Sequence record: NC_052657.1
Origin: Escherichia phage muut
Strand: one strand, 5' to 3'
DNA: 64,000 nt
The position numbers and the translations under genes were made by a program. Positions 4,214-64,000 of the stretch are shown here, in pieces (positions within the stretch are counted from its first letter, which is position 1; every line of letters begins with the position of its first letter). The notes beneath the pieces are model-generated. The model worked only from the letters and a program-made list of their open reading frames with translations. It searched no databases and had not been told where the DNA came from.

Positions 4214-4214
4214 A

Positions 4215-4430: not shown

Positions 4431-4488
4431 GAGCGGCACTATTGCCGCCCTACGAAATACATTCTACCCGATTTATAATTGTTGTCAA
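4431..4488 (-). promoter_or_regulatory. Early promoter plus 5-prime stem-loop cassette (-35 TTGACA 4483-4488, -10 TAGAAT, hairpin GGGCGGCA-atag-TGCCGCTC)
   Basis: Minus-strand TTGACA-N17-TAGAAT followed by an inverted repeat. Confidence 0.55.
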
Positions 4489-4489
4489 A

Positions 4490-4759
4490 CTATTTTTTCA
4501 AGCTCGACCAGTCAAAACACGGGGCGATCTCGTTAAAACTTGTACCCTGTAAAGCACATAATTTTTTAGCAATAGCCGCCGTAACCTGGCGTTGTACGCG
4601 CGGATCTGCTACTGATTGGAGAAAATAGGCGGTTTTATATGTGATCATGCTTTCGCCTGTTTCCTTGTTAACGTGGTGCACGGTTTTAGCCTTATCATCT
4701 TTTACCAGGGTGTAACCGGATTCGATGGCCTTGATTGCAACGTCCAAAGATATTTTCAT
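4490..4759 (-). CDS. Hypothetical early protein (89 aa)
   Basis: ORF with ribosome-binding site AAAGAGGTAAAT; 5-prime hairpin GGCGGGGGA-gtatt-CCCCGCC (plus-strand 4779-4799) upstream. Confidence 0.55.
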   Translation of the reverse strand: MKISLDVAIKAIESGYTLVKDDKAKTVHHVNKETGESMITYKTAYFLQSVADPRVQRQVTAAIAKKLCALQGTSFNEIAPCFDWSSLKK

Positions 4760-4998: not shown

Positions 4999-5057
4999 GA
5001 GCGGCACTATTGCCGCCCTATGTGATAAACTTTACTACGTTGTTTGCCTAGTGTCAA
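4999..5057 (-). promoter_or_regulatory. Early promoter plus 5-prime stem-loop cassette (-35 TTGACA 5052-5057)
   Basis: Same hairpin sequence as the 4431 cassette (gagcggcactattgccgcc); TTGACA upstream on the minus strand. Confidence 0.5.
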
Positions 5058-18256: not shown

Positions 18257-18258
18257 AC

Positions 18259-18408
18259 ATGGTTATCTACAAAAATAAGTTCACTGGCTGTCTGCGTAAA
18301 TTTATTGACAAAAAAGGGTATGTTTCTGTTGACAATGGTGTTACGTGGGTACAAAATGGCACTTCAGAACAACTGATCAAGGCTTTACCTTACTATGAGG
18401 AGGTTTAA
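18259..18408 (+). CDS. Possible small protein (49 aa)
   Basis: Hand-translated; ribosome-binding site TAAGGAG. Below the track cutoff. Confidence 0.3.
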   Translation: MVIYKNKFTGCLRKFIDKKGYVSVDNGVTWVQNGTSEQLIKALPYYEEV

Positions 18409-18732
18409 ATGTCCAACAATCTGTTTAGCGTGTCAATTGCACCGCGTGTTAATATTCGCTGTCAGTTTGTTAACTTACCAGGTGTGACACATATCACTTT
18501 AGAGTATGATCCTCGTTCACAAGAGAACCCAATTACAGGCAAGATTGATTCAGCCTACGGCGACTTTCTGATGGATCACCAAGCAATCTTATGTTGTGTG
18601 CAACGCTTACAAGCAGGGTCTTTATACATCTTCAAGAAATCTGTGTTCCAGGAGATTGCTCAAGCGGTTGAGAGTGGTATGGAAACACTTAACAACATGA
18701 TCGAAGCCGCTAACAAAAAGGAGGTTTTATGA
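18409..18732 (+). CDS. Hypothetical protein (107 aa)
   Basis: ORF with ribosome-binding site GAGGAGG. Confidence 0.55.
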   Translation: MSNNLFSVSIAPRVNIRCQFVNLPGVTHITLEYDPRSQENPITGKIDSAYGDFLMDHQAILCCVQRLQAGSLYIFKKSVFQEIAQAVESGMETLNNMIEAANKKEVL

Positions 18733-18986
18733 CACTTTATCATGTAACTACCGAAGGTGATTGCGAAGGTCGTACCACAAAAGATTTAGGGTATGTCGAA
18801 GCAGATTCGCCTGAACATGCAATTAAGTATCTGCACTCTATTGGTAAGTATGCTTATTATGAATATTATATCCATGAAATTGAGGAAAATCCTATACAAG
18901 TAGCAACACCTATGGTAGAGTTGGAACATCTTAAAGCAAAAGTTAAAACTGGCAGCACATCTGGATTTAAGGGGGTAGTACAATGA
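18729..18986 (+). CDS. Hypothetical protein (85 aa)
   Basis: ORF; ATGA overlap with the previous gene. Confidence 0.5.
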   Translation: MTLYHVTTEGDCEGRTTKDLGYVEADSPEHAIKYLHSIGKYAYYEYYIHEIEENPIQVATPMVELEHLKAKVKTGSTSGFKGVVQ

Positions 18987-22622: not shown

Positions 22623-23099
22623 ATGTCTAAACGTTTTGGTCGTAATCAAAAAAGAAAGTTAAGTGCTCAACTAGCAGCTTTGCAAAAAGAGGTTAACACT
22701 TTACAAAAAAGTGTTTGTGAACTTAAGGAACAAAACCAACTTGAAAAAGAGTGTATCCAGCTTACACAGGAAGTTATTGGTGAGTATTTTCCTTCACTAG
22801 TTCCTAAGAAGGTGGCTCTTAGGGAAAATCTACCTTTTACCTTGTCCTTGATGCAAGCAAATAATAGATTCCAAACTGAAACTGATGATTTGATGTTTGC
22901 AATGCATCAATTACATGGTTTAGAATATACAGCACAAGTGGATAAACTTCGTAACATGTTATATGTGCGGGTAGAAACACCTAAAGGTGAGACAGTAGCT
23001 TTTAATTATAATTTCCAACAGCTACCTGATCATATTATTGAACAAATTTTAAAACGAGATTTTGTTCCTATGCTTGTTAAACAAATTAAGAGAGGTTGA
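22623..23099 (+). CDS. Hypothetical coiled-coil protein (158 aa)
   Basis: ORF with heptad-like N-terminus. Confidence 0.5.
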   Translation: MSKRFGRNQKRKLSAQLAALQKEVNTLQKSVCELKEQNQLEKECIQLTQEVIGEYFPSLVPKKVALRENLPFTLSLMQANNRFQTETDDLMFAMHQLHGLEYTAQVDKLRNMLYVRVETPKGETVAFNYNFQQLPDHIIEQILKRDFVPMLVKQIKRG

Positions 23100-23100
23100 A

Positions 23101-35819: not shown

Positions 35820-35843
35820 TTAAGCCCCTTCGGGGGCTTTGTT
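35820..35843 (+). terminator. Rho-independent terminator (AAGCCCC-ttcg-GGGGCTT)
   Basis: Perfect stem followed by TGTT. Confidence 0.5.
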
Positions 35844-49139: not shown

Positions 49140-51719
49140 ATGGGAGCTTTTACTTTCGACATTGAAAGTAACAACTTGCTTAATGACGAAAGTGTAGATT
49201 ACTTGGCAAGTCCATATCGTTTAAAAGATAGTTTTGCAATGCACTGTATTGTGTGCGAAAGTCATGATACTGGAGAGATTATTGCTTTCCATGATGGTGA
49301 TAAATATCTTTTCGATGGTCGTCCGTATGTTGAGACTGACGGAAAGTATGAATACCGACTGGAGGAATATGAGCATTTAGAATATACCCATTTCCCTCTT
49401 AAAGATTTTCCTGATTTTGTAAATGGAACAGGTAAATTTAAAGGTAATTCAAACTATAAAATTACCAAAGTAGTTGGACATAACATCATTAACTTTGACT
49501 TACTGGCAATTAAATTATTTTTTAAACTCAACTACAGTATTAAGTACAATACTTGGGGTAATAGTAACATTGAAATTTGTGATACTATGATCTTAAGCAA
49601 GACACTAAACCCTGATCGCTTCGGTGGTCATAGTCTGGCAGAGTTATCTAAGAAAGCTGGAGGGGATGTTAAAATTGATTTTAGAAAAAACATCCCTGAA
49701 ACTGAAAGATTTAAAACATTTGCAGCAGATATGCTGTATTACTGTATTTACGATAACAAAGCTAACACCGCAGTGTTCCGTTATTTGATGGAAGAGTGGG
49801 GTGATTATAATAAGTGGTCTGAACCATTTAACTTAGAACAACGTGTAGCTGATATTATTACACGTCAAGAGCACCGTGGCTTTGCTTTCAATATGAAACA
49901 AGCAGAAGATAATATTCGTGATCTGGATGCTCGAATGGAAGCATGTCGTTTAGAGGCAGAACCTGTGCTACCTCCTAAACCTGCTACCAAAGGTTATTTG
50001 AAATCATTCATTCCACCTAAACTACAGTTTAAAAAGAATGGTGAACCTTCAAGTAACATGATAAAGTTTGCAGAGAAACATTCTGGTGAACTTGTACAAA
50101 AAGAAGATGGTTGGTGGTTATTTGCACTAGGTAAAGAGTTTAAACTACCTATTCCAGCAGAAGAACCTATTTGTGATCCTACAGTACCTGCTACTTTAGA
50201 CGACACTACACATATTAAAAACTGGTTAGTTGGTTTAGGTTGGAGTCCATCTGAATATAAAGATAAAGATATCACTCTTAAATCTGGCACTAAGATTAAG
50301 AAAGATGAAGCACAAATGGAGAAAGCTATTCGTGACTATGTTGATCAAACGTTAGCATCTAATTTCTGCCAGGACAGATGTGATCATCTGGAGTGCACAC
50401 CAGAAACTTTGGAATGGAAACTAAGAGATCGTATTGCTAAAGCTAAAGGTCGTGGTGTTAAAGTGCTTACTAACCCTTCCTTTACAAAAGGGCAAGAGAA
50501 AGATATTTGTCCTAACTTGGAAGCACTAGGTGAAAAGTTTCCTTATGCTACGCAGATTGTGCAGTATCTTACGTATAAACACCGTAGGAACTCTATTCTA
50601 GGGGGTGGTGCTGATTGGGAAGAAGATGAAGAGGATTATGATAAAGGTTATCTGGCAGCAGTAAGGGCTGATGGTCGTATACCAACTCCTGCTGCAACGT
50701 GTGATGCAGCTACATCTCGTATGAAACATAGGTTAGTAGCAAATATCCCACGTGTAACATCTCTGTACGGATATGAAATGCGTAACTTATTTGGTGTAGA
50801 AGTTCCAAAATACTTCCAAATTGGTTATGACTTTGATTCTCTTGAGGCAAAAATAGAATCACACTACTGTTGGCGGTACGAGCAGGAACCACACGAATAT
50901 TGTAATGCTCTATTATTGGAAAAACCTAATGATGTTCATACAATGATGGCTCGACGTATTTCTGATACTATTGGGCGTAAGTTTGAACGAAGCCCTGCTA
51001 AATCTGTTAAGTATGGTATTACTTATGGTGCTCAAGCTGCAAAAGTAGCAAAAACTATAGGTAGTGATATGTATACAGGACAGCTTGTATACGATGCTTT
51101 CTGGGAAGCTGCAAAACCTCTTGCACTTCTTAAAGAACGTCTGCATGATTTTTGGGTTAAAACAGGTAAGAAATACATTCTTGGTATTGATGGTAGAAAA
51201 GTACCTACACGATCTGCACACGCAATACTTAACTCTCTGTTTCAGAGTGGTGGTGTTATTTGTGCAAAAAGAGCAATGGTTATCTACGACGATCTTATCG
51301 AAGAAGAAGGATTAGCTGTTGACTTTTTTGTTGATGACTGGAAAAATAAGTCATTCGTTCAACAAATGATTGCATATCACGATGAAGCACAGCTTGAAGT
51401 AACTCGTGATCTGGTGCATTTTAAATGGTTCTCTAAAGAATCTTTAGGTTGGACTCAAGTTGATGATCCAGATGAACAAAAGAAAATTGATAAAGAATGT
51501 TTGGATAAAGTTAATGCCTGGAAAGAAGAGGAAGAGAAACGTACTGGCAAGATTTGGGCTAACGTACATGAGTCTCCAAAAGGTGGTTGGTTTACAGCCT
51601 ACAGTCGTGCTGGAGAATTAGCATCTATCGCTGTTAATAAAGCTGGTGAGTATTACAATCTTAATGTACCTCTCACTGCTGGTTACGATGTTGGTAACTC
51701 ATGGGCCAGTTGTCACTAG
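49140..51719 (+). CDS. Family A DNA polymerase (Pol I / T7-like)
   Basis: Motif A-like YDFDSLEAKIESH, motif B KSVKYGITYGAQAAKVAK, motif C AYHDEAQLEV. Confidence 0.8.
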   Translation: MGAFTFDIESNNLLNDESVDYLASPYRLKDSFAMHCIVCESHDTGEIIAFHDGDKYLFDGRPYVETDGKYEYRLEEYEHLEYTHFPLKDFPDFVNGTGKFKGNSNYKITKVVGHNIINFDLLAIKLFFKLNYSIKYNTWGNSNIEICDTMILSKTLNPDRFGGHSLAELSKKAGGDVKIDFRKNIPETERFKTFAADMLYYCIYDNKANTAVFRYLMEEWGDYNKWSEPFNLEQRVADIITRQEHRGFAFNMKQAEDNIRDLDARMEACRLEAEPVLPPKPATKGYLKSFIPPKLQFKKNGEPSSNMIKFAEKHSGELVQKEDGWWLFALGKEFKLPIPAEEPICDPTVPATLDDTTHIKNWLVGLGWSPSEYKDKDITLKSGTKIKKDEAQMEKAIRDYVDQTLASNFCQDRCDHLECTPETLEWKLRDRIAKAKGRGVKVLTNPSFTKGQEKDICPNLEALGEKFPYATQIVQYLTYKHRRNSILGGGADWEEDEEDYDKGYLAAVRADGRIPTPAATCDAATSRMKHRLVANIPRVTSLYGYEMRNLFGVEVPKYFQIGYDFDSLEAKIESHYCWRYEQEPHEYCNALLLEKPNDVHTMMARRISDTIGRKFERSPAKSVKYGITYGAQAAKVAKTIGSDMYTGQLVYDAFWEAAKPLALLKERLHDFWVKTGKKYILGIDGRKVPTRSAHAILNSLFQSGGVICAKRAMVIYDDLIEEEGLAVDFFVDDWKNKSFVQQMIAYHDEAQLEVTRDLVHFKWFSKESLGWTQVDDPDEQKKIDKECLDKVNAWKEEEEKRTGKIWANVHESPKGGWFTAYSRAGELASIAVNKAGEYYNLNVPLTAGYDVGNSWASCH

Positions 51720-53915: not shown

Positions 53916-54647
53916 ATGAGCGAATTTGTAAACAACACCGCATTAAACTACCTGCAAACCCTCGAAAGCAATAGTGTAGATTTGATTCTTACTGACCCAC
54001 CATATGCTATTTCTCGTGACACAAATTTTCAGTCTGGAGAGCCTACTGGAAAAGATACGGATAGATTCCGTGTATCTTACAACTTCGGTGATTGGGATGT
54101 TGTAGATATTCCTTACTTTAAAGAAGTATTCAAAGAAGCCTACAGGGTGCTTAGAAAAGGTGGTACTTGCATAGTTTGGTATGATATCTGGAAGATCCAG
54201 GAACTACGTGAAATCCTTGAACCGCTTGGTTTTCGTATGTTCCGTACCATCGAATGGATTAAAACAAACCCTGTACCCATCAACAGTGGTGTTAACTACC
54301 TTAGTAACGCTAAAGAGATGGCTATTGTTTGTGTTAAAGGTTCGAAACCAACCTTCAATGCTTCCTACCATAAGGGTGTGTTTGAGTATCCTATCTATCA
54401 AGGAGCAGATCGTTTTCATCCAACACAAAAACACTTGACTTTGTTTTGTGACCTTATTAATATACACACCAACGAAGGAGATGTAGTCTTAGACTTCTTC
54501 TCTGGAAGTGCAACAACACAAGTTGCGGCACTTTTAACAGGTAGAGAATACTTAGGCTGTGAAGCCGATGTAAATATTTTTAAGCAAGCGGAGGAACGAC
54601 TAAATGAGTACACTGAACAGCAAAATCACCCTGAAAGCACTGATTAA
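53916..54647 (+). CDS. DNA methyltransferase (N6-adenine or N4-cytosine, beta class)
   Basis: DPPY motif (LILTDPPYAI) upstream of the SAM-binding motif VLDFFSGSATT. Confidence 0.7.
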   Translation: MSEFVNNTALNYLQTLESNSVDLILTDPPYAISRDTNFQSGEPTGKDTDRFRVSYNFGDWDVVDIPYFKEVFKEAYRVLRKGGTCIVWYDIWKIQELREILEPLGFRMFRTIEWIKTNPVPINSGVNYLSNAKEMAIVCVKGSKPTFNASYHKGVFEYPIYQGADRFHPTQKHLTLFCDLINIHTNEGDVVLDFFSGSATTQVAALLTGREYLGCEADVNIFKQAEERLNEYTEQQNHPESTD

Positions 54648-55035
54648 CAATGGTATGAACCTGGACTCTGGTCTGTCTCCAAAGATTTCTATGGCACGAC
54701 TGGAACAAGTTACTGGTCTTCGTCAAGTAAGTAATGGCGGTAAGATTATTCGTGATGACGCTGTACCTTTTAATAAGTTTCAGATTGAACGTCATTACGA
54801 TCCTGTAACTGCAAGCCTCACTGGTGTAACTTTCTCAGGTTATCGTACTGCCGGATACCAGCGTAAAGTTGTAGCTGAACGTATTAAGAGTCGCAAACAG
54901 AAAATTGCGACATTGAAGAAACTGGTAGAGAAAGATGTTTCAGAACTTCTTAACCTGTATGAAACTCTTGAGACAAAAGGTGAAGATCATAAACTCTTCT
55001 CTAAAGAAGATGTAAGCGTAATTTTCACTGATTAA
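54604..55035 (+). CDS. Hypothetical protein (143 aa)
   Basis: ORF with GGAGGA ribosome-binding site; overlaps the methyltransferase 3-prime end by 44 nt. Confidence 0.45.
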   Translation: MSTLNSKITLKALINNGMNLDSGLSPKISMARLEQVTGLRQVSNGGKIIRDDAVPFNKFQIERHYDPVTASLTGVTFSGYRTAGYQRKVVAERIKSRKQKIATLKKLVEKDVSELLNLYETLETKGEDHKLFSKEDVSVIFTD

Positions 55036-55039
55036 GATA

Positions 55040-55072
55040 AAAGAAAAGGAGCCTAATGGCTCCTTTTTGTTT
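55040..55072. terminator. Bidirectional terminator between convergent gene blocks (AAGGAGCC-taat-GGCTCCTT)
   Basis: Perfect stem flanked by an A-run and a T-run; lies between the last plus-strand gene and the first minus-strand tail gene. Confidence 0.6.
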
Positions 55073-56957
55073 ATGTAACATTGACTGTAAATCTGACAAG
55101 AGGTGATAACACGTCATTATCAGCATCATAGTGTGCAACATCAAACACTGTTGTACCTGCTGCAAATCCATATTGTTCAACCTGATCTGCATAAGTAAAT
55201 GTGTAAGTGTTAGTATCCAGGGTTTGTTCTGTAAGAATTGCTGCTGTGAGGACGTTTACATTTCGGAAGTAATGTTTAGTATATCCTGCTGGTTCCCAAG
55301 AGACAATTGCATCTTGGTTAGCTTGTCTTACAGCGGCTCCTCCTGTTGGAACAGACATATCAACCCAAACAGGTGACGCTGATGTTAAGTCTGTACCGTC
55401 TGCTGCCGATTTAGCAAGTTTTGTAGCTGCTGTTTGATATACAGAAGAAATATAATGGATACGACCATCAATACCTTCTTCATAAACATAACCACTGTAA
55501 CGTTCAGCACCATCTACCCAAGAACCAATTATAACATCATCACGTGCTGTAGAGATGGTTCTTTGTACATTTCTGTACTTCTGCCAATCCACACCATTAA
55601 CTTCTACACCATATAAATAAGAACGTCCTAGGATCTGCCAAACAATTTTTGCTTGAGAAGCAGGAACTATTGTACGCATCTTATCAAAGATAGCTATCGT
55701 AGCATCATGGTAACGTGTAGTGTTACTGTACCTACCTGCAACAGTCGAAGATGCTGATACAGCATCATTTTCACCTTGTCCCCAAATAATTGCTTTAACC
55801 TTACTTGCATAAGGTGTGACTTTAGTGATAAAGTTAGTTAAGCATGGCCCATCTGCTGTGTTATCCAGATCATACCAGTAGTTGTCTGGTGTTCCTGTTC
55901 CGGCTTTATCATCTGCATATTTATCTGCTGCTGATGATCCAGAAGCTGCATTTAACGGAAGAACTTCAGCATTTGCTAAACCACGTTGCGTAGCATATGC
56001 ATTACGGGCTGTTGTGCTACTCATTGCTGCTTTATTTGCACCAGATAGTTCTGTAAAGTGTGCATTTACGTTATCTTGTCCAGCAAAGACAATAACTTCT
56101 TTAATGAATGAATCATCTGTAGCTATTGAGCTATTAAAGATAACGGCTGCTGCTTTGGTGCTCTTAACGCTAATTTTAAGGTATGTTGGAGCAAACCCAT
56201 AAAGAGGAATAGAGTCAGAGATATCAAAGTAGGCGTAAGTATTTGTGGTTGTTGTAGTCCACTGGACACTATTATCACTTAAATCTAATACTTCTACAGT
56301 ATAAGTATCACCATCTAGCGGATCAGTTACATCCCAAGCAACACGAACGTCTCCATAACTGTTTGCCACGGCTGTTACATTAGAAATAACAGGAATAGCA
56401 TTAACACCTAAATAAGAACTATCAGAGGCCACAACTGTTCCTTGATACGTTGCAGTACAACCTATACGGCAATTGCCATCTTTAAGAGCAGTTATTAATC
56501 CTGTAGGGCTTACAGTAGCTACTTCTGGATCTGTTGTGGTGTATGTAATTACCATATCTGGAAGGTCTTTAGCACCTTCTGGACTGATTGTAGCAACCAA
56601 CTGTTGAGTAGTGCCTACATCCATAGCCGATAGACTTTCAGTGTACACACTTAATTCTGAAGCATAACCACCAGATTGATCAGTTAAGACAGCACCTAAA
56701 TTATTTTTAGCTGTCATTATTGCATCAAAACCACCTTCGGCAACAAACTCCATCATACCACTATTATCTATAACCATTTTGGTATTATCTGAAGATGAAA
56801 AAGCTATATCAAATAACGCACCATCTTCGGGTGTAACTGTGTATGTCAGTTGTTTTTTACTACCAACTATGGCAATACCAATAGAGGAAGTAGTTATAGA
56901 TGTAGCTGTTACTACTGAAGCTGATGTTGTTGACATAAATAAAGGAATAGGATACAT
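55071..56957 (-). CDS. Tail fibre/tailspike protein with possible carbohydrate-esterase-like region
   Basis: 628 aa, Thr/Ser/Ala-rich beta-type sequence; VFAGQDNVNAHF and IWGQGENDA are reminiscent of SGNH/GDSL esterase blocks (weak). Confidence 0.5.
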   Translation of the reverse strand: MYPIPLFMSTTSASVVTATSITTSSIGIAIVGSKKQLTYTVTPEDGALFDIAFSSSDNTKMVIDNSGMMEFVAEGGFDAIMTAKNNLGAVLTDQSGGYASELSVYTESLSAMDVGTTQQLVATISPEGAKDLPDMVITYTTTDPEVATVSPTGLITALKDGNCRIGCTATYQGTVVASDSSYLGVNAIPVISNVTAVANSYGDVRVAWDVTDPLDGDTYTVEVLDLSDNSVQWTTTTTNTYAYFDISDSIPLYGFAPTYLKISVKSTKAAAVIFNSSIATDDSFIKEVIVFAGQDNVNAHFTELSGANKAAMSSTTARNAYATQRGLANAEVLPLNAASGSSAADKYADDKAGTGTPDNYWYDLDNTADGPCLTNFITKVTPYASKVKAIIWGQGENDAVSASSTVAGRYSNTTRYHDATIAIFDKMRTIVPASQAKIVWQILGRSYLYGVEVNGVDWQKYRNVQRTISTARDDVIIGSWVDGAERYSGYVYEEGIDGRIHYISSVYQTAATKLAKSAADGTDLTSASPVWVDMSVPTGGAAVRQANQDAIVSWEPAGYTKHYFRNVNVLTAAILTEQTLDTNTYTFTYADQVEQYGFAAGTTVFDVAHYDADNDVLSPLVRFTVNVT

Positions 56958-56996
56958 TTAATCTCCTTAAACAATAAGCCCCCGAAGGGGCTTTGA

Positions 56997-58958
56997 TTAT
57001 GTGCGTTTAGCAACAATAGCATCCACGTAATCACCAACACCACAATATGTTAGTTGTAGTATTGTTACTCCGTTAGGATCTGTATTAATATCACTAGAAC
57101 CAATTACTTTGTAAGATGGATCTAAAGTAACAGTACGACCCCCAGTGGCATCTTGGATAAGATAAACTATTGCAGAGAATGGTTTAGGTTTTGTGCTATC
57201 TTCGACACCAGGCCATGCTTTTATAGTAGAGTTACCAGTAAGATTCAACACATTCATGTTATGTGTTCCTGGAGGTGTCCAGTCCCCTGTAACAGATTTG
57301 TTGGTGTATGCTGTAACCTCTATAAAATTAGTTGTTACTTTTGTTGGAACTATATCTTGACCATCTACAGAACTAGTGAGTTCTTCCCATGCTCCATCTT
57401 TACGAGCATAGATTTTACCATCACTAGGTGCATCTGTGATGCTAGGTAGTGTACCTTGAGAAGTCCAGACAGTTGCAGATGTTTTTAAGAACACCTCGCC
57501 AGTGGAGATATTAAAGGCATAATCCCCTTGTTTACCATCACTAGAGATTGGATCTGTTGTTTTAACAATCCAAGTTGCACCATCCGTACCGTTAGTACCA
57601 GCGTCACCTTTCTCACCCTTATCACCTTTCAAGCTACCCATATCTACATATTCAGCAGTTTGAGTTTGTTCATCATAGGTGTAAATGTAAAGATGACCTG
57701 TATCTTCCGTCAGATAAGCATCACCGTAATTGGATGTAGGAGGAAGTGCACTTGCAGACGCAACGTGTCCTTTTGCAGTGATTGGAGTACCAGCTAAACG
57801 ACCAACATTTGTCCACTGTGTGGCTCCTTGCAACCAAACCCAAAGTTCATTATTGATCAGATAACCATCACCATCTTCTCCAGTTTGTGGTAGTTCAGAA
57901 GTGTCAGTCAGAATATCAATAATGGTCAACCCTGCACCAGTTGGCCCCGTCAAGCCTTGTATACCCTGCTCACCTTGATCACCCTTGTCTCCCTTATCAC
58001 CTTTTTCTCCTTTCAGAGAGGCAATATATTCGTCAATAGTACCAACGTTACCAGCGTTTAACCAGACTTGATAAGCTGAATCACCAGTGTTACCCTTATC
58101 TCCTTTGTCGCCTTTATCTCCTTTTGGCCCCACTATAGCGCCCATATTGATCCATTCTACACCGTTTGACACGTATAGATATGTACCAATACTCCATGCT
58201 TGAGATGTGTTTCCAGGAGATGCAGAAGGAAGATCTGAAACGGAATTAGCTGCACCTTGGTAATCAAAACCATTAGCATTGTTACCTGGCACACCTTGTG
58301 GCCCCTCTGGGCCAGGCTCCCCTTTATCACCTTTAATTGAAGCAAGATAATCTAGTTCTGTACCTTGGTTTCCTGCTGCAAGCCAAACTTGATAAGCTGA
58401 TTTACCTTCTGGCCCCTGTGAGTTTACTTTTCTCCAAGCAGTACCATCCCAAGCATACATATTCTCGCCTACAATCCATGCATCTCCTGCATTGTTTCCA
58501 GTTGTAGGTAATTGGTTGGTATTAGATAGCGTCCCTAGCAGCTTTAATGGAGCACCTGGATCACCTTTTAAAGAAGCCAACCAGTCTGTCTCAGTGCCTT
58601 GGAAACCATTGTCTACGGCAATCTGGTAAGCTGATTTACCAGCTTCTGGAATGGATTCTCTAAGATCTTCAATTTCAGCTTCAATAGCATCTAATTCTGA
58701 TTCTATTTGAGCAATGTCATCTGCATTACCCACATTTTTCCAAGCTGTATCTGAAATCCCTCCAGTAGATGTAGGAGTAGAGTTAGCAGGTACAACTTTA
58801 GGTAGAGAACCTTTCCACTGATAGTAGTTACCGTCAGTTTCAAAGAGCAATGCTTCACGAGCATCTCTTAAGGTAAAACCACTTGCAAAACTTCTACGCT
58901 TTCTATAGCGAGACTCTACCATGTCTGCAATGGCACTATTTGGACGTGTTAAAATCAC
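56997..58958 (-). CDS. Tail fibre protein with collagen-like Gly-X-Y repeats
   Basis: GDKGDKGDKGNTG, GEKGDKGDKGDQGEQGIQGLTGPTG and GDKGEPGPEGPQGVPG read directly. Confidence 0.65.
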   Translation of the reverse strand: MILTRPNSAIADMVESRYRKRRSFASGFTLRDAREALLFETDGNYYQWKGSLPKVVPANSTPTSTGGISDTAWKNVGNADDIAQIESELDAIEAEIEDLRESIPEAGKSAYQIAVDNGFQGTETDWLASLKGDPGAPLKLLGTLSNTNQLPTTGNNAGDAWIVGENMYAWDGTAWRKVNSQGPEGKSAYQVWLAAGNQGTELDYLASIKGDKGEPGPEGPQGVPGNNANGFDYQGAANSVSDLPSASPGNTSQAWSIGTYLYVSNGVEWINMGAIVGPKGDKGDKGDKGNTGDSAYQVWLNAGNVGTIDEYIASLKGEKGDKGDKGDQGEQGIQGLTGPTGAGLTIIDILTDTSELPQTGEDGDGYLINNELWVWLQGATQWTNVGRLAGTPITAKGHVASASALPPTSNYGDAYLTEDTGHLYIYTYDEQTQTAEYVDMGSLKGDKGEKGDAGTNGTDGATWIVKTTDPISSDGKQGDYAFNISTGEVFLKTSATVWTSQGTLPSITDAPSDGKIYARKDGAWEELTSSVDGQDIVPTKVTTNFIEVTAYTNKSVTGDWTPPGTHNMNVLNLTGNSTIKAWPGVEDSTKPKPFSAIVYLIQDATGGRTVTLDPSYKVIGSSDINTDPNGVTILQLTYCGVGDYVDAIVAKRT

Positions 58959-58976
58959 TTTACTACTCCTTTTATA

Positions 58977-58997
58977 AAGGGGCTTTCGCCCCTTTTT
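58977..58997 (-). terminator. Intergenic hairpin/attenuator between tail genes (AAAGGGGC-tttc-GCCCCTTT)
   Basis: Perfect stem followed on the minus strand by TTTATAAAAGGAG (T-run then ribosome-binding site). Confidence 0.45.
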
Positions 58998-58999
58998 AA

Positions 59000-61414
59000 T
59001 TAAGCATTATTGACAGTAACAAAAGTAACAGGGTTCAGAGCTTTAATTTGTGTATTCTCTGCTGTAGGTGTTACAATTGGATCTGCAATATCTATTGTGT
59101 ACAAACTATTTGTCACGTATGTAGCACGTGCTATAGTTGTCACAAGATCGCCGCCATTTGCACCTGCACCTGGAATAACAATCTTAGTACCTGCTGCTTT
59201 AGCGTAGCCATTACTAGCCCAGTTTAAAGCATTAGACTGTAGATAGGTTTGACCTGTAACAGTTGCTTTTATTTTCTCGTTGGCACTAAAGAAAGCACCA
59301 CCTACTGTAACAACATGTTTTTTACCGCTTGCACAATGAATAACTGTTCCAGTAGGGAATTCACGCCCACCTGGGAATTCATCATAAGCTGTAAAATATT
59401 GTTCAGAAATAGTAGTTAAAACTGGCCCACGATGACCTGTACCATCAACAGCAGTTGGAACACCAAAGTTATTTCCAACCTGATCGCAACGATCCGTGTA
59501 GATTTTAGCAAAAGAAACTGTTGTTTCATCTCCGCTAAGTGCTGTACATCCTACCCACTTCATATACGTGAATTGGCTGCGAGTATAGAAACCGCCACCA
59601 CTTCCTTCTCCGCTTCCATGTTGACCAATAAAGTCAATACTACGGCAACGAATATTATTAAAGGTAGAGCTAGATGGTAGTCCACGCCATTTAAAAACAT
59701 TACAATTGATATTACTAACAATTGTAGAGTTTTCCCAGGCATCTGATCCAGATGTTGCAATCTCAATTGAAGATTCTGGAATATCCAAATTCTTAATTGT
59801 AAAGTTAATTGGTGGCCCCGCATATCTGCCACTGTTAACACCCCAATCAATAAAGACCATGCGTGTTGAAACAGACGGATCATTAAGCAGATAACCAGTT
59901 AAACCATCAACTTCAAAATCTTGGCATCCGTATAATGCAACACCACAAGTAGTTAAACCTGTACCTGTTGAAACTGCTGTGTTAGGATAAACTTCATTAT
60001 CACGTATTGTGAAGTTTTTACCCATTTCAACGTGTAAACATTGACGGCAATTGTAAACCCTATTCCCAACGATACTGAAGTTACGTACATATTGTGAATC
60101 AGGAACATCAACACCATATGGGCCACTACCTGCTACACCAATACCAATACCCCAGTTTGCACCTTGTCCAGAAGCATCTACGTTAGCAATGTGGTTATTC
60201 TCGATAATCAAACCTTCAGTGTAGTGTTTTTGAACTACGTTAAGTTCAATAGCATCACCTTTGATATCGTGAATATAGTTGTTAGAGTAACGCCCGTAGG
60301 TCATTACTTCTCCAGTACCTTGTTGCAGGATCGCATATTTACAACCATACATTTCGTTGTAACTGAAGTCCAACGTACCTTCACTTGTCATTGCTTGCAT
60401 TAAGAATGCTGCTGTAGATGTTGCGTTGGAGAAGATATTACGATAGAATCGGCAATCACCACCTAACATCTTAACATAACATTTTTCAAAGCGAACGTTT
60501 TCCATCCAACAGGACACAGTAGAAATCATTGTTCCACCGTTACCAGTGAATGTACCTCCATACCAACGAATACCAGACATAGCAATTGAGCTTGTGAATC
60601 TATAATTCTTATCTGCACGTACTTGAATGTTATTCGTGTTAGCGAAAGTAATGGTTTTTAAAATTGCTTGAGTATCATCGGTAACTCCATCACCAATTGC
60701 ACCAAACTGCTCAGGCGTTACAAAGTATTGAGCTTGTAACAGGTTGCCTCCAGATGGAAGACCAACCATTGCTGCACCAGTGGTAGATGACAAAAGGTTT
60801 TTCTCTACGTAAGAAGTAGAGGCTGTTGTTTTACCAATAAAAGCAAACAATTTGTTAGGTAGACCAGTAGACGGATCTAAACCTAATGGTTCTGCCAGAA
60901 TAATTTTACTATCTTTGATAGTAAATGCTTCACCTTGAATCTGAATTACACCGTTAATGGTGACAATAGCATTATCAAAGATATAAGGAGGACTGATTTC
61001 TGTTTCGTATCCTGTAGCACCTTTAAAATACCAAGGATACACATCTGAAGCTAACTGTTCAGTTTTAAGAGCGTACAGAGTCCAGTTACTGTCTCCTACA
61101 GGTGTACCCTGCATAGGTACAGGGTTCGCAGTAGTGGCAGATGGGGCATAATAGTACCCACTCAAGATACCGTTTTCAAAATAACGTAACTGGTTAAATA
61201 CAGTTTCAGTTGATCCTGCTGACCAAGCAACAGGACTCTTAAAGAAGAAGTTATCAACAAGTGCTTTACGCAGTGTAGGTATTAAACCTGTTTCGGTTTC
61301 TACAGTTGCTGTAGCATCTCCATTAATAACATCATGCATCTGGTTAGACGAGAATATAACCAGATCAACACCTTGTTCTAGTGTCGTAGCAGGATATGTT
61401 GGAAAATTCGCCAT
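59000..61414 (-). CDS. Tailspike with pectate-lyase-like right-handed beta-helix (putative depolymerase)
   Basis: FGAIGDGVTDDTQAI motif typical of the pectate-lyase superfamily; 804 aa. Confidence 0.65.
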   Translation of the reverse strand: MANFPTYPATTLEQGVDLVIFSSNQMHDVINGDATATVETETGLIPTLRKALVDNFFFKSPVAWSAGSTETVFNQLRYFENGILSGYYYAPSATTANPVPMQGTPVGDSNWTLYALKTEQLASDVYPWYFKGATGYETEISPPYIFDNAIVTINGVIQIQGEAFTIKDSKIILAEPLGLDPSTGLPNKLFAFIGKTTASTSYVEKNLLSSTTGAAMVGLPSGGNLLQAQYFVTPEQFGAIGDGVTDDTQAILKTITFANTNNIQVRADKNYRFTSSIAMSGIRWYGGTFTGNGGTMISTVSCWMENVRFEKCYVKMLGGDCRFYRNIFSNATSTAAFLMQAMTSEGTLDFSYNEMYGCKYAILQQGTGEVMTYGRYSNNYIHDIKGDAIELNVVQKHYTEGLIIENNHIANVDASGQGANWGIGIGVAGSGPYGVDVPDSQYVRNFSIVGNRVYNCRQCLHVEMGKNFTIRDNEVYPNTAVSTGTGLTTCGVALYGCQDFEVDGLTGYLLNDPSVSTRMVFIDWGVNSGRYAGPPINFTIKNLDIPESSIEIATSGSDAWENSTIVSNINCNVFKWRGLPSSSTFNNIRCRSIDFIGQHGSGEGSGGGFYTRSQFTYMKWVGCTALSGDETTVSFAKIYTDRCDQVGNNFGVPTAVDGTGHRGPVLTTISEQYFTAYDEFPGGREFPTGTVIHCASGKKHVVTVGGAFFSANEKIKATVTGQTYLQSNALNWASNGYAKAAGTKIVIPGAGANGGDLVTTIARATYVTNSLYTIDIADPIVTPTAENTQIKALNPVTFVTVNNA

Positions 61415-61755
61415 TAATTTTTGTCCTTACTTTGTGTGCGCTTTGTAATCTCCTCTAGCATTAATTGAACAGGAGCATTTTTTAAATCCATTATTTTTTC
61501 AATCTTCTGTTCTAAGGCAGTATTATTTGCCATTAATGTAGAGTTGATCTGGTTAAGCATTTGAGCAAGTTCTGCTTTGGTAGCATAAGTGGATTCAACA
61601 AACACCAACTTCTTTTCTAGTTCGCGGTATTTGTCTTCCATTTTATCCAAATCACTTGCCATATCATCTATCTTCTGTTTGAAGACCACCCAGATTACGC
61701 CAATAAGAGGGATAATCGCCTCTTTAGCGATATCCCATACTTCTGTTAGCTCCAT
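61414..61755 (-). CDS. Hypothetical membrane/coiled-coil protein (113 aa)
   Basis: One hydrophobic segment (IIPLIGVIWVVF) followed by a charged coiled-coil. Confidence 0.45.
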   Translation of the reverse strand: MELTEVWDIAKEAIIPLIGVIWVVFKQKIDDMASDLDKMEDKYRELEKKLVFVESTYATKAELAQMLNQINSTLMANNTALEQKIEKIMDLKNAPVQLMLEEITKRTQSKDKN

Positions 61756-61764
61756 ACATTGCCC

Positions 61765-62316
61765 CTATTTCTTAGGTCTTGTAGGCCAAGTTATATTAGG
61801 TGCATCTTCAACGTTAATTTGAATTAATGTTGCACGATAGAGTTTAACTTTTCCTAACCAATCTTTTTGTTCTTCAGATAAACCTTGTAATTCCTCTAAA
61901 TCTTGAATCGCAGACACTTGATTCGTAGCCCAAGTTAGCTCCTTTTCTAACTTAAGAGTAGCATCTTCAATAGCAAGATTATTGTGAGGAACAAACTTAC
62001 CTTCAACATATTGCCAAGAGCCAATATTACTTTCATCTTCTATTTTATCTGGTACATTATATGTAACTAAAATAGATTGTCCGGCAGGGAAATAGGTAGT
62101 AACATCTTTAGTAGCACCACGTACAATATTATTATCATCTAAGGTAATAAAATAAGCATCTGGATATTCTACCATCAAAGTTTTTTGAAGCTGATACCAG
62201 TCGTTACCATCTTTGTCTTGCAAAAAACCACCACCAACAGAAAGATAAAGAATATTTTCTTCTGTTAATTCTGGTTCATACAATTCAAAACCTGTAAAAA
62301 TAACGTCTTTTTTCAT
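61765..62316 (-). CDS. Hypothetical tail-associated protein (possible tail fibre assembly protein)
   Basis: Position between tail fibre genes; no diagnostic motif. Confidence 0.45.
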   Translation of the reverse strand: MKKDVIFTGFELYEPELTEENILYLSVGGGFLQDKDGNDWYQLQKTLMVEYPDAYFITLDDNNIVRGATKDVTTYFPAGQSILVTYNVPDKIEDESNIGSWQYVEGKFVPHNNLAIEDATLKLEKELTWATNQVSAIQDLEELQGLSEEQKDWLGKVKLYRATLIQINVEDAPNITWPTRPKK

Positions 62317-62325
62317 AGACTCTCC

Positions 62326-63309
62326 TTACGAAACGTTGGTTACTGTTATCCAGCTACCATTAATATAATATTGTAGCGGAGCTGACCAATACCAAGCACC
62401 ACGAAGTTCTTTCTTGTCACCAAAACCCCAACCTGTGATCACGTGACCAGCATAGAAACGAGACTCAGACACACCAGCTTGGATACGTGTTCCAAGACGG
62501 ATAGCAGACACAACAGAAGAAACTCTATTGTTAATGCTATTAATTTGGCCTTGCAAGTTACTATTAACGTTGTTAATATTATTTTGCAGTGTGCTTTGCA
62601 ATGAGTTTAGTCTGGAGTTAAGATAGTCTAATCTTACAAGAGCATTACCATTACCAGTATCTTGACCAGAATTAGAACGAGGGTTGTCTATTAAAACATA
62701 ACCTGCATCATATAAACGGACTGCACAAGATGTTCCTCCAGTTGATGGGTTCATTCTATAAATATAGAGTTGACCACCTGCACCTGGTTCAGAGGACATA
62801 TTACCTACTGTTTGTCCGTTGTAGTTTCTAAAAAATAATGTTGCAGGATCTGTAGCACCTGTACCACAGGTATAAATATCGCCTGCATAGATAGCACCAC
62901 CATTATCACGCTTAACAAGGACATTCCCTACAACTTGGTTTGATGTTGCGTCTGTAATGTTAGCTGATAAGTGATTATGGCTGTTATCTACGACTTGAAT
63001 AGATAATGTTACAGCAGCATTACCATTCCATGTAACTTCACCTGTAGCATCACCTGCCATTGTAATTTTAGTACCGACTATAGGAAGATATGTAGTAGGC
63101 AATGTTGGGAAGAATTCATCTTGCATATAGCGAATCCAAGACCCAATATTGTTTAAGATCCAGTTCATTTCTTCACAAGTCATAATCTGACCAAAGTCCA
63201 TACCAACATTACGGATGGTTTCTTTTGGTCTAATCTTGTTTGTGTTTCCCGTTCCTGGGAGGGTTACTGTTTGTGTCGCCCAGTCAGGGTAGTATTGTGG
63301 CTTTGCCAT
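62326..63309 (-). CDS. Tail fibre protein (Gly/Asn/Thr-rich)
   Basis: Composition and context. Confidence 0.5.
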   Translation of the reverse strand: MAKPQYYPDWATQTVTLPGTGNTNKIRPKETIRNVGMDFGQIMTCEEMNWILNNIGSWIRYMQDEFFPTLPTTYLPIVGTKITMAGDATGEVTWNGNAAVTLSIQVVDNSHNHLSANITDATSNQVVGNVLVKRDNGGAIYAGDIYTCGTGATDPATLFFRNYNGQTVGNMSSEPGAGGQLYIYRMNPSTGGTSCAVRLYDAGYVLIDNPRSNSGQDTGNGNALVRLDYLNSRLNSLQSTLQNNINNVNSNLQGQINSINNRVSSVVSAIRLGTRIQAGVSESRFYAGHVITGWGFGDKKELRGAWYWSAPLQYYINGSWITVTNVS

Positions 63310-63322
63310 TAAGAGTAACTCC

Positions 63323-63952
63323 TTATTCTATTTGAGCTATCAGCATAGTCATTCGCCCTGTATCATCTCCTTCAGCCTCTGTGTAAAGAGAACCTAAACC
63401 ACCTATACCATGAGGTGGAGTTGTGGCATAATAGGAAGTGAAACCAAAGGCTGCACCCGCTTTCGCACCTAAGCGATAACTACTTAGGATCGGGAAAACG
63501 TTAAGTAACTGTGCTACTGCCTGATCGGATTGTAGACACAAATTATAAAAGAATACGTCGAATGTTTTATTTAATCCAACGTATGTATTAATCGTTTCTT
63601 TTTCTGTTCCTGTAAAACGAGCGAACATATCAATGATATCATCTCGCGTACCAGAAGACGCAACACGATAAGCCCTGATTTTTAATATTGTACGATACTC
63701 TTCATCTGTAGCACCATTTCTTTCCATCCCCATCTCTTCACCAATAAGATCTAAATACTTACCAGTTGCAGTAGAGATTAAGCGGTGTTTGGCAAGATAG
63801 ATCATTGCCTGATCTATCTTTTGTTTTTCGCTAGAAATGATATAGAGTAGTTTGACAATGTTCGGAGAAGATTTAAAATCTTCAATCAGTAGGTCTTTAA
63901 CATCTTCATTGATACTATCCCACGTTGTCACATGGTCAACACTCACTGCCAT
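63323..63952 (-). CDS. Hypothetical structural (baseplate/tail) protein
   Basis: Context only. Confidence 0.4.
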   Translation of the reverse strand: MAVSVDHVTTWDSINEDVKDLLIEDFKSSPNIVKLLYIISSEKQKIDQAMIYLAKHRLISTATGKYLDLIGEEMGMERNGATDEEYRTILKIRAYRVASSGTRDDIIDMFARFTGTEKETINTYVGLNKTFDVFFYNLCLQSDQAVAQLLNVFPILSSYRLGAKAGAAFGFTSYYATTPPHGIGGLGSLYTEAEGDDTGRMTMLIAQIE

Positions 63953-64000
63953 TTTTAGACTCCGTACTCGTAGGAAATATTATCAAGGTCAAAGGATGGT

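What the first reader, a model, noticed from the sequence alone, without database searches (positions are those of the whole stretch)
55071..61414. Three distinct receptor-binding or depolymerase-type tail proteins in tandem
The tail gene block has a protein with weak SGNH-esterase-like blocks (55071..56957), a collagen-repeat fibre (56997..58958) and a pectate-lyase-like beta-helix tailspike (59000..61414), separated by hairpins that look like attenuators. Multiple enzymatic tail proteins imply a complex or broad polysaccharide-targeting host range.
Basis: partly seen in the sequence, partly recalled or inferred. Interest (0 to 1): 0.4.

Follow-up and report, generated by a model that had tools for sequence, protein, structure and literature searches.

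The report
Known phi92-type phage tail receptor-binding genes
These three genes are the end of the tail gene block of a coliphage almost identical to sequenced phi92-like phages, whose multi-tool host-recognition apparatus was described in 2012, so the finding is real but already known; only one of the three proteins is a proven enzyme.

Summary
The three ORFs exist exactly as described, all on the minus strand. The window is a Justusliebigvirus (phi92-like myophage), 99.99% identical to Escherichia phage vB_EcoM_ZYD.

- **P3 (59000-61414)** is 99.6% identical to phi92 gp150. That protein is the colanic-acid-degrading tailspike, with a solved structure (6E0V) and published activity.
- **P2 (56997-58958)** is phi92 gp151. 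It is a non-enzymatic fibre with a tailspike-type N-terminal anchor and four short collagen-like Gly-X-Y runs.

P1 is modular. It is broken in phi92 itself, and it occurs as 628-aa and 939-aa forms in other members of the genus.

The intergenic hairpins are real. However, they belong to a genome-wide set of UUCG/GAAA tetraloop terminator-like hairpins and are not dedicated attenuators.

The multivalent "Swiss army knife" reading is correct in spirit and was published in 2012. "Three enzymatic proteins" is not supported. Overall: already known, low interest, with a modest open question about P1.

The parts
59000..61414 (-). P3, colanidase tailspike (ortholog of phi92 gp150), 804 aa
   Evidence: 99.6% identical to phi92 gp150 over 804 aa. 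PDB 6E0V matches at E=0. PHROG 6117 'colanic acid degradation' 5e-270. Annotated as colanidase in relatives.
60875..61414 (-). P3 N-terminal anchor module (aa 1-180)
   Evidence: aa 12-126 match the N-terminus of the phiTE long tail fibre (9cuy_g, 9.4e-18). That N-terminus is resolved in the phiTE baseplate (PMC11972413). This module is not part of the 6E0V crystal construct.
59306..60874 (-). P3 catalytic core (aa 181-703), pectin-lyase-type beta-helix by identity to 6E0V
   Evidence: 6E0V is listed among pectin-lyase-fold tailspikes in bioRxiv 10.1101/2020.07.20.212829. Pfam PF12708 is sub-threshold only.
59039..59305 (-). P3 C-terminal TSP_Ig-like domain (aa 704-792)
   Evidence: Pfam PF20745, 2e-14, 54 bits against a 27.9 cut-off.
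58976..58995 (-). Intergenic hairpin with GAAA tetraloop between P3 and P2, followed by the Shine-Dalgarno AGGAG of P2
   Evidence: (-14.5 kcal/mol, z -3.1). A hairpin sits at the equivalent spacer in phAPEC8.
56997..58958 (-). P2, fibre protein (ortholog of phi92 gp151), 653 aa from a GTG start
   Evidence: 97.9% identical to phi92 gp151. PHROG 15437 'tail fiber protein' matches full length.
58728..58928 (-). P2 N-terminal tailspike-type anchor domain (aa 11-77)
   Evidence: Pfam Tail_spike_N PF18668, 3.6e-21, 75.5 bits against a 25 cut-off. It matches the N-terminal domains of CBA120 TSP1/3/4 and other tailspikes in the PDB.
57573..58331 (-). P2 shaft. Four collagen-like Gly-X-Y runs (aa 210-227, 277-294, 317-343, 445-462) are interleaved with three 'SAYQ...GTE..(W/Y)(L/I)AS(L/I)KG' repeats that start at aa 109, 187 and 294 (the first lies upstream, nt ~58630).
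57000..57383 (-). P2 C-terminal tip domain (aa 526-653), shared with Vequintavirus-type fibres
   Evidence: PHROG 4549 C-terminus 6e-39. tblastn finds 43-56% identity to fibre tips of rV5-like, Salmonella and Proteus phages.
56976..56993 (-). Intergenic hairpin with UUCG tetraloop between P2 and P1
   Evidence: (-13.1 kcal/mol). An identical stem-loop lies at 35822-35839 on the plus strand.
55071..56957 (-). P1, modular Ig-like / SGNH-like tail protein, 628 aa (short form)
   Evidence: PHROG 32204 'tail protein' matches full length. The first 628 aa are 95% identical to the 939-aa form in phage Paula. It is annotated variously as tail protein, lateral tail fiber, tail carbohydrate esterase and non-contractile tail sheath.
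56397..56915 (-). P1, two Big_2 Ig-like domains (aa ~15-187)
   Evidence: Pfam Big_2 7.4e-13 with two stretches. The AlphaFold model has pLDDT 85-91 here.
56160..56390 (-). P1 beta-sandwich domain (aa ~190-266). FN3-like is inferred only. Most of this segment is deleted in phi92.
   Evidence: All-beta with pLDDT 74-81. The deletion is mapped.
55398..56105 (-). P1 SGNH/SASA-fold domain (aa ~285-520). Block I is FAGQ-D295-N at 56055-56090, block III is WGQGENDA at 55761-55787, and His501 lies within 55449-55469.
55074..55355 (-). P1 C-terminal FN3-like domain (aa 535-628). A mosaic boundary separates the short and long alleles here.
   Evidence: The family profile hits the FN3 of chitinase A1 (0.0033). 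Foldseek gives FN3 hits. DNA identity to the long form is only 77% here, against 98% in the flanks.
55044..55067 (.). Bidirectional intrinsic terminator. It closes the tail operon and also the convergent plus-strand gene that ends at 55035.
   Evidence: -17.4 kcal/mol, z -6.7. It is annotated as a terminator in phage Paula.
61414..63952 (-). Upstream context in the same operon, tightly packed (gaps of -1 to 13 nt). It holds a baseplate protein (63323-63952, phi92 gp146-like), a Mu-type short tail fibre (62326-63309, gp147-like), a tail fibre assembly chaperone (61765-62316, gp148-like) and a small membrane-anchored coiled-coil protein (61414-61755, gp149-like).

Best explanation
The region is the 3' end of the late tail/baseplate operon of a phi92-like myophage (genus Justusliebigvirus, essentially phage vB_EcoM_ZYD). 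It encodes three of the at least five or six host-recognition proteins of the published multivalent ('Swiss army knife') adsorption apparatus. P3 is the colanidase tailspike. An N-terminal anchor module mounts it on the baseplate/fibre network, and a beta-helix core cleaves the beta-1,4 Glc-Fuc bond of the colanic acid exopolysaccharide, so the virion can tunnel through that slime layer. This activity is shown for the 99.6%-identical phi92 protein. P2 is a non-enzymatic trimeric fibre (inferred). It has a tailspike-type N-terminal docking domain, a shaft built from three sequence repeats joined by short collagen-like triple-helix segments, and a C-terminal binding tip shared with rV5-like phages. 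Its receptor is unknown. P1 is a modular accessory tail protein with a conserved N-terminal peptide, two Ig-like domains, a beta-sandwich, an SGNH/SASA-fold domain and an FN3 domain. The SGNH/FN3 part is homologous to the core of the phage N4 sheath/receptor-binding protein gp65. Because the canonical nucleophile Ser is replaced by a conserved Asp, I think it most likely acts as a glycan-binding or holding module and not as a classical acetylesterase (inferred, about 50-60%). Transcription runs from the baseplate genes through P3, P2 and P1. Each of the last three genes is followed by a stable tetraloop hairpin with a weak U-tract, and a strong bidirectional terminator follows P1. These hairpins probably act as partial terminators or 3' mRNA stabilisers that grade the expression of the distal genes (inferred from sequence only).
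For: Identity of the lineage: 53 phage records are more than 95% identical over the 6.3 kb. The window is 99.986% identical to ZYD over 20.9 kb. Synteny and gene-by-gene correspondence to phi92 gp146-gp154 are seen. P3: with published activity (Xu et al. 2025, quoted in PMC13450770). P2. P1 fold. P1 family: 8 of 9 diverse relatives hit Pfam SASA, 6 of them above the curated cut-off. gp65 homology: E 5e-26 for the single sequence, 1e-132 for the profile, and TM 0.8. Ser-to-Asp. Multivalent apparatus and broad host range: PMC11984140, PMC8594841, PMC11990801 and PMC13450770. Hairpins: with positional conservation in phAPEC8 despite different stem sequences. Gene packing.
Against: The physical location of gp150 and gp151 on the virion is unsettled. 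The 2026 phi92 cryo-EM study could not fit either protein into the unassigned 'fibre II' density, and it noted that gp151 resembles a head spike of phage Pa223. P1 keeps block III (GQGEND) and the block V His501, so a non-canonical catalytic mechanism cannot be excluded. Several GenBank records call it a carbohydrate esterase. No transcript data were available, so the role of the hairpins is conjecture. I could not inspect model coordinates to check the geometry around Asp295 and His501.
Confidence: 0.85

Rival explanations
1. P1 is an active carbohydrate O-acetylesterase, as annotated in phages KMB37 and ALITA. On this reading it strips acetyl groups from a surface glycan (for example O-acetylated colanic acid, an O-antigen or the NGR glycan) and so cooperates with the neighbouring colanidase. 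This would resemble the esterase tailspike gp63.1 of phage G7C.
For: P1 has a true SGNH/SASA fold. Block III GQGEND and His501 are conserved. The Asp at the nucleophile position is itself invariant across relatives that are only 41-49% identical, which suggests selection on that residue. The gene lies next to the colanidase gene. From general knowledge, colanic acid is O-acetylated.
Against: The canonical block I Ser is missing, whereas 66 of 82 family domains have it. The candidate catalytic His is Gln in two close relatives, P0033 and P0034. P1 itself fails the Pfam SASA cut-off. The gene is disrupted in phi92, which remains a broad-host-range phage.
Confidence: 0.25
2. This is the first reader's reading: three distinct enzymatic depolymerase-type proteins, separated by regulatory attenuators, together give a broad polysaccharide-targeting host range.
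For: There are three different tail proteins in tandem. One is a proven depolymerase. The lineage really does have a broad host range.
Against: P2 has no catalytic domain. P1 lacks the nucleophile. The hairpins are a generic, genome-wide element with no Rfam match and no leader or alternative-structure features.
Confidence: 0.05
3. P2 (gp151) is not a tail fibre but a head- or neck-associated fibre or decoration.
Against: The N-terminal domain is the tailspike anchor domain found in CBA120 TSP1/3/4 and in many sipho- and podophage tailspikes. The C-terminal tip is shared with annotated tail fibres. The gene sits in the tail-fibre block between two tail proteins.
Confidence: 0.12
4. P1 is the determinant of the lineage's dependence on the N4 glycan receptor (NGR/NfrA), because it is the largest homolog of the N4 receptor-binding sheath protein gp65 in these phages.
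For: Homology to gp65 residues ~430-1280 is extensive. Both N4 and Justusliebigvirus phages depend on NGR.
Against: Comparative genomics and k-mer models assign NGR binding to a short GMSHY-containing domain in the gp142-type deacetylase fibre, which is present in all NGR-dependent myoviruses. GMSHY is absent from the whole window and present in the gp142 homolog of ZYD outside it. In Phapecoctavirus the SGNH-like module of P1 is replaced by RCC1-like repeats.
Confidence: 0.08

Closest known systems
Multivalent adsorption apparatus of phage phi92 (Schwarzer et al. 2012, J Virol 86:10384; genes gp140-gp153)
   Same: The gene order and the proteins are the same. P3 is 99.6% identical to gp150 and P2 is 97.9% identical to gp151. 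The upstream genes correspond to gp146-gp149 and the convergent downstream genes to gp154-gp161.
   Different: In phi92 the P1 ortholog is split by a ~218-nt deletion plus frameshifts into gp152 and gp153. Here it is one intact 628-aa ORF. The near-identical phage ZYD has no endosialidase (gp143) at the corresponding place, which lies outside the window.
Phage N4 non-contractile sheath / receptor-binding protein gp65 (PDB 9LC0, 9YF4)
   Same: P1 aa ~280-628 share the SGNH/SASA-like domain plus the FN3-like domain with gp65 (E 5e-26, TM 0.78-0.80). The family profile aligns to two tandem copies of that domain and to several FN3 repeats in gp65.
   Different: gp65 is 1382 aa with 10 domains, forms a sheath around a podovirus tail and binds NfrA. 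P1 is 628 aa with Ig-like N-terminal domains in a myovirus. The first SGNH-like copy of gp65 has Ser at the nucleophile position (FAGESQ) where P1 has Asp (FAGQDN). P1 lacks the GMSHY motif linked to NGR.
SGNH-hydrolase esterase tailspikes, e.g. phage G7C gp63.1 (Prokhorov et al. 2017, cited in PMC11990801), and SASA/CE6 esterases (1ZMB, 2APJ, NanS 3PT5)
   Different: The nucleophile Ser is replaced by Asp in P1 and its close relatives. No activity data exist.
Branched tailspike complex of phage CBA120 (TSP1-4)
   Same: P2 carries the same N-terminal Tail_spike_N domain, which in CBA120 docks tailspikes onto one another (Pfam PF18668; PDB hits 4OJ5, 5W6H and 5W6F). Both phages carry several different receptor-binding proteins on one virion.
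   Different: P2 continues as a collagen-like fibre and not as a beta-helix enzyme. The docking partner in phi92-like phages is unknown.
UUCG/GNRA tetraloop intercistronic hairpins of large lytic phages such as T4 (general knowledge: Tuerk et al. 1988)
   Same: They are short GC-rich stems closed by UUCG or GAAA loops on the transcribed strand, located between genes and recurring across the genome.
   Different: Function has not been tested here. Two of the three lack a good U-tract.

Membership tests
phi92 gp150-type colanidase tailspike | Close sequence identity to the biochemically and structurally characterised protein | tested here: met
   99.6% identity over 804 aa to phi92 gp150. PDB 6E0V matches at E=0 and 1430 bits over aa 180-804.
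phi92 gp150-type colanidase tailspike | Right-handed parallel beta-helix (pectin-lyase fold) catalytic core | tested here: inconclusive
   Pfam PF12708 (Pectate_lyase_3 / Pect-lyase_RHGA_epim) scores only 14.3 bits against a 27 cut-off. No model of P3 was made. The fold follows from near-identity to 6E0V, which the literature lists as a pectin-lyase-fold tailspike.
phi92 gp150-type colanidase tailspike | Hydrolysis of colanic acid | not testable with these tools
   Reported for phi92 gp150 (cleaves beta-1,4 Glc-Fuc) by Xu et al. 2025, as quoted in PMC13450770.
SGNH hydrolase superfamily, SASA family (PF03629) | Three-layer alpha/beta/alpha SGNH fold | tested here: met
SGNH hydrolase superfamily, SASA family (PF03629) | Score above Pfam's curated cut-off | tested here: not met
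   P1 scores 15.0 bits against 24.8. Membership rests on transitive homology: 6 of 9 diverse relatives pass the cut-off.
SGNH hydrolase superfamily, SASA family (PF03629) | Block I nucleophile Ser (GQSN / GDSL) | tested here: not met
   P1 has GQ-D295-N. Asp is invariant in its 41-97% identical relatives. Ser is present in 66 of 82 domain copies of the wider family.
SGNH hydrolase superfamily, SASA family (PF03629) | Block III Gly/Asn oxyanion residues and block V catalytic His | tested here: met
   WGQGENDA and RI-H501-Y are present. However, His501 is Gln in relatives P0033 and P0034.
SGNH hydrolase superfamily, SASA family (PF03629) | Esterase activity | not testable with these tools
   No experimental data were found for P1 or its orthologs.
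Collagen triple-helix repeat (PF01391) | Uninterrupted Gly-X-Y repeats scoring above the curated cut-off | tested here: met
   32.5 bits against 27.2. There are four runs of 6, 6, 9 and 6 triplets, far above shuffled expectation. They make up only 12% of the protein.
Tailspike N-terminal anchor domain (Tail_spike_N, PF18668) | Domain match above the curated cut-off at the N-terminus | tested here: met
   P2 aa 11-77, 75.5 bits against 25. The PDB matches are to tailspike N-termini.
N4 gp65-type sheath / NGR-NfrA receptor-binding protein | Homologous SGNH-like plus FN3 core | tested here: met
   E 5e-26, profile E 1e-132 and TM 0.78-0.80.
N4 gp65-type sheath / NGR-NfrA receptor-binding protein | Full 10-domain architecture (~1380 aa) and the NGR-associated GMSHY domain | tested here: not met
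   P1 is 628 aa with different N-terminal domains. GMSHY is absent from the window in all six frames.
Transcription attenuator / known regulatory RNA | Match to a curated RNA family, or leader with alternative structures | tested here: not met
   No Rfam match at E<=1 in 54500-64000. The spacers are 39 and 41 nt and each holds a single hairpin plus a Shine-Dalgarno site.
Intrinsic terminator | GC-rich hairpin followed by a U-tract | tested here: inconclusive
   The site at 55044-55067 meets it on both strands. The site at 56976-56993 passes the simple scan with a weak tail (AUUGUUU). The site at 58976-58995 is followed by UUUAUAAAA and is not called by the scan.

The most novel reading that the evidence does not exclude
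P1's SGNH/SASA-fold domain, with its lineage-conserved Ser-to-Asp change at the nucleophile position, is a pseudo-esterase or a mechanistically non-canonical enzyme that has been turned into a glycan-recognition module. It is shared with the core of the N4 receptor-binding sheath protein gp65. On this reading, the presence, loss or swapping of the module tunes host range. The observed states are: broken in phi92, a 628-aa form here, a 939-aa form with an extra distal module in other members of the genus, and an RCC1-like replacement in Phapecoctavirus. If so, phi92, the structural reference for the genus, would lack a component that most of its relatives carry.
Probability: 0.3. Interest if true: 0.4.

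Novelty: already known. Interest (0 to 1): 0.15.

Why it matters
The block itself adds nothing new. It is the published phi92-type multi-receptor adsorption machinery, in a genome that is already in GenBank. Its practical value is for annotation:

- GenBank labels for these genes are inconsistent. P2 appears as 'tail assembly protein', P1 as 'tail sheath', 'capsid and scaffold' or 'carbohydrate esterase', and the gp149 homolog as 'lipoprotein'.
- The 'esterase' label on P1 rests on fold alone, while the canonical nucleophile is missing.
- P1 is intact here but broken in phi92. Structural work on phi92 therefore cannot locate it, and a relative such as ZYD, Eryne or PaulScherrer would be the better model for completing the map of the adsorption apparatus.

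Tried and rejected
- The first full-length AlphaFold model of P1 (7-sequence alignment) was unusable in the catalytic domain, with pLDDT 30-60. I did not use it for fold search. A second model of aa 270-628 with 13 sequences was good.
- A word-indexed homolog search with the P1 C-terminal half returned only 2 hits. The exhaustive HMMER search was needed to see the family.
- The profile search of PDB sequences did not reach SGNH esterases significantly (2APJ E=0.77). Only structure comparison did.
- Schwarzer et al. 2012 is not held in the library, so virion proteomics for gp150-gp153 could not be checked.
- Pfam found nothing in the extra 311-aa module of the long P1 form.
- There were no Rfam hits in the region, no tRNAs in the window and no GMSHY motif.
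- I considered that P1 is the NGR-binding protein because of its gp65 homology. I rejected this as the leading idea, because published comparative genomics points to the gp142-type fibre.
- I considered that the short P1 is a recent truncation. I rejected this because its last ~330 nt are only 77% identical to the long allele, the stop abuts the same terminator, and the short form occurs in many isolates.

Full report
**Observation**

- P1 at 55071-56957, 628 aa.
- P2 at 56997-58958, 653 aa, with a GTG start 8 nt after an AGGAG.
- P3 at 59000-61414, 804 aa.

They end a tightly packed minus-strand block. Its upstream members are a baseplate protein (63323-63952), a short tail fibre (62326-63309), a tail-fibre assembly chaperone (61765-62316) and a small 113-aa protein (61414-61755). 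Gaps between the upstream genes are -1 to 13 nt. P3|P2 and P2|P1 are separated by 41 and 39 nt.

**Provenance**

- The 6.3-kb region is 100% identical to Escherichia phage vB_EcoM_ZYD and more than 95% identical to 53 phage records. These are nearly all Justusliebigvirus, the phi92-like myophages of subfamily Stephanstirmvirinae.
- Window 43071-64000 differs from ZYD by 3 bases in 20,930.
- The well-annotated relative Paula maps the genes one-to-one to phi92: gp146, gp147, gp148, gp149, gp150 (colanidase tailspike) and gp151 (potential tail fibre). A 'putative tail component protein' follows, and the convergent genes gp154-gp161 lie beyond it.

This lineage is the textbook case of a multivalent adsorption apparatus (Schwarzer et al. 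2012). Later work describes it as a 'Swiss army knife' of co-expressed tailspikes and fibres that gives a very broad host range (PMC11984140; PMC8594841; PMC11990801).

**P3**

- It is 99.6% identical to phi92 gp150.
- Residues 180-804 match the crystal-structure sequence 6E0V at E=0.
- gp150 has been expressed and shown to degrade colanic acid by cleaving the beta-1,4 Glc-Fuc linkage (Xu et al. 2025, quoted in PMC13450770).
- 6E0V is listed with the pectin-lyase-fold tailspikes.
The C-terminal TSP_Ig-like domain is significant.
- The N-terminal ~180 aa are not in the crystal construct. They match the baseplate-embedded N-terminus of the phiTE long tail fibre (9cuy_g, 9.4e-18), so this part is an anchor module.

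**P2**

- It is 97.9% identical to phi92 gp151.
- It has a significant Tail_spike_N domain at aa 11-77. This is the docking domain of the CBA120 tailspikes and of many other tailspikes.
- It has a significant Pfam Collagen hit and four uninterrupted Gly-X-Y runs (6, 6, 9 and 6 triplets; 81 of 653 aa, against 1.4 aa in shuffles). These are interleaved with three 'SAYQ...' repeats.
- Its C-terminal tip is shared with fibres of rV5-like and other phages.
- No enzymatic domain was detected in any library.
- Its location on the virion is unresolved. The 2026 phi92 cryo-EM paper could not fit gp150 or gp151 into the unassigned fibre II, and it noted a resemblance of gp151 to a head spike of phage Pa223.

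**P1**

P1 is the least characterised of the three and took most of the work.

Sequence searches:
- Two Big_2 Ig-like domains are significant.
- Pfam SASA is only sub-threshold on P1 itself.
- PDB sequence search hits the phage N4 'non-contractile tail sheath' gp65.
- An exhaustive HMMER search with aa 270-628 found a small family of 81 representatives among 1.84 billion proteins.
- Eight of nine diverse members hit Pfam SASA, six of them above the curated cut-off.

Structure:
- The first AlphaFold model was poor in this domain.
- A second model of aa 270-628 reached pLDDT 84 and pTM 0.82.
- Foldseek places it on N4 gp65 (TM 0.78-0.80) and then on SGNH carbohydrate esterases, with FN3 hits for the C-terminal ~95 aa.

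The catalytic motifs tell a different story:
- Block I reads FAGQ-D295-N. N4 gp65 has FAGE-S-Q at the same place, and 66 of 82 family domain copies have Ser.
- Asp295 is invariant in P1's relatives down to 41% identity.
- Block III (WGQGENDA) and His501 are kept, although His501 is Gln in two relatives.

I therefore do not file P1 as an esterase. The fold says 'works on or binds acetylated sugars', and the missing nucleophile says 'probably not a classical hydrolase'.

**P1 is modular and variable**

- In phi92 itself the ortholog is disrupted. P1 aa 1-198, 273-334 and 354-628 are found in three different frames at 98% identity, with ~218 nt deleted. They are annotated as gp152 and gp153.
- About 21 Justusliebigvirus records carry a 939-aa form with an extra 311-aa C-terminal module.
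- The window, ZYD, VEcB and Eryne carry the 628-aa form.
- The two alleles share the same terminator, but they are only 77% identical over the last ~330 nt, against 98% in the flanks. This marks a recombination boundary and not a recent truncation.
- In Phapecoctavirus (phAPEC8) the syntenic third gene keeps the Ig-like N-terminus and the distal module, but it has RCC1-like repeats in the middle.
- The BME3 paper had already noted that the 939-aa fibre is shared in the genus 'except for phage phi92'.

**Link to the N4 glycan receptor**

Justusliebigvirus phages, like N4, depend on the NGR glycan, and P1 is homologous to the N4 receptor-binding protein gp65. That made P1 a tempting candidate. 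However:
- A 2026 preprint maps NGR specificity to a 59-76-aa GMSHY-containing domain. It is shared between gp65 and the gp142-type deacetylase fibre.
- GMSHY is absent from all six frames of the window. It is present in the gp142 homolog of ZYD, about 2.8 kb beyond the window end.

I rank this idea low.

**Hairpins**

- Both spacers hold a stable GC-rich tetraloop hairpin on the transcribed strand. The loop is GAAA after P3 and UUCG after P2.
- A strong bidirectional terminator follows P1.
- These hairpins are not peculiar to the tail genes. Thirteen such hairpins occur in the window against 1.2 expected by chance.
- The same stems recur at 35822 (UUCG) and 49054 (GAAA) between unrelated plus-strand genes, again with the stable loop on the coding strand.
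- phAPEC8 has hairpins of different sequence in the equivalent spacers, one of them with a proper U-tract. This argues that they are functional.
- There is no Rfam match, and there is no room for a leader or for alternative structures.

The most economical reading is leaky terminators or 3' stabilisers that step down the expression of the distal genes. This is inference only.

**Verdict**

The feature is a known system in an already sequenced phage. One protein is a proven depolymerase, one is a plain fibre, and one has an esterase fold without the canonical nucleophile. The residual open point is what P1 does and where it sits. That point is modest, but it is testable, and it cannot be addressed in phi92 because the gene is broken there.

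Noticed in passing
window 55071-56957; L005 (phi92 NC_023693) 17321-18983: The type phage phi92 has this gene broken by a ~218-nt deletion plus frameshifts. The pieces are annotated as gp152 (202 aa) and gp153 (295 aa, 'no RBS, weak statistics'). The window has one intact 628-aa ORF.
   Followed up: yes
window 55071-55400; L002 (phage Paula) 8065-9327: Two alleles of P1 circulate in the genus: 628 aa, and 939 aa with an extra 311-aa distal module. That module also occurs in Phapecoctavirus and, at 26-28% identity, in Kagunavirus-like siphophage minor tail proteins. The last ~330 nt of the shared part are only 77% identical between alleles, against 98% in the flanks. Pfam finds nothing in the extra module.
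   Followed up: partly
window 61414-61755 (minus strand): This is the gp149 homolog, labelled 'lipoprotein' in PHROGs and in several GenBank records. It contains no cysteine at all, so it cannot be a lipoprotein. It has an N-terminal hydrophobic segment (IIPLIGVIWVVF) followed by a predicted coiled coil, gives weak Rz-like spanin hits, and overlaps the P3 start by 1 nt. Its role within a tail-fibre block is unknown.
   Followed up: partly
window 13626, 31665, 35822, 41417, 49054, 53878, 55044, 56976, 58976 and others: There is a genome-wide set of 13 GC-rich tetraloop hairpins (1.2 expected by chance), mostly with UUCG or GAAA loops on the transcribed strand. Identical stems are reused at distant intergenic sites.
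   Followed up: partly
window 4433-4448 and 5001-5016: The same 16-nt hairpin (GCGGCA-CUAU-UGCCGC) occurs twice, 568 nt apart. No tRNA genes were found anywhere in the window, so these are not tRNA stems.
   Followed up: no
window 49140-51719; L003 (phi92) 1336-4650: The DNA polymerase I of phi92 (1104 aa) carries an in-frame insert of about 244 aa at the position of residue 577 of the window's 859-aa polymerase. The flanks are 99-100% identical. This looks intein-like and is absent here.
   Followed up: partly
window 56997-58958: The ZYD record annotates P2 from a downstream ATG (641 aa) and calls it 'tail assembly protein'. The GTG at 58958, with an AGGAG 8 nt upstream, gives the 653-aa product that is annotated in phi92 and Paula. 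The Pfam anchor domain starts at residue 11.
   Followed up: partly
L004 (ZYD) 22629-24704, about 2.8 kb beyond the window end: The gp142-type deacetylase fibre carries the NGR-associated GMSHY motif. It lies just outside the window and is mislabelled 'capsid and scaffold' in the ZYD record. ZYD, like Paula, has no endosialidase (phi92 gp143) at that locus.
   Followed up: partly
window ~16000 and ~55050: Strand switches in gene orientation are matched by GC-skew sign changes: minus-strand genes before ~16 kb, plus-strand genes from 16 to 55 kb, and minus-strand tail genes after 55 kb.
   Followed up: no
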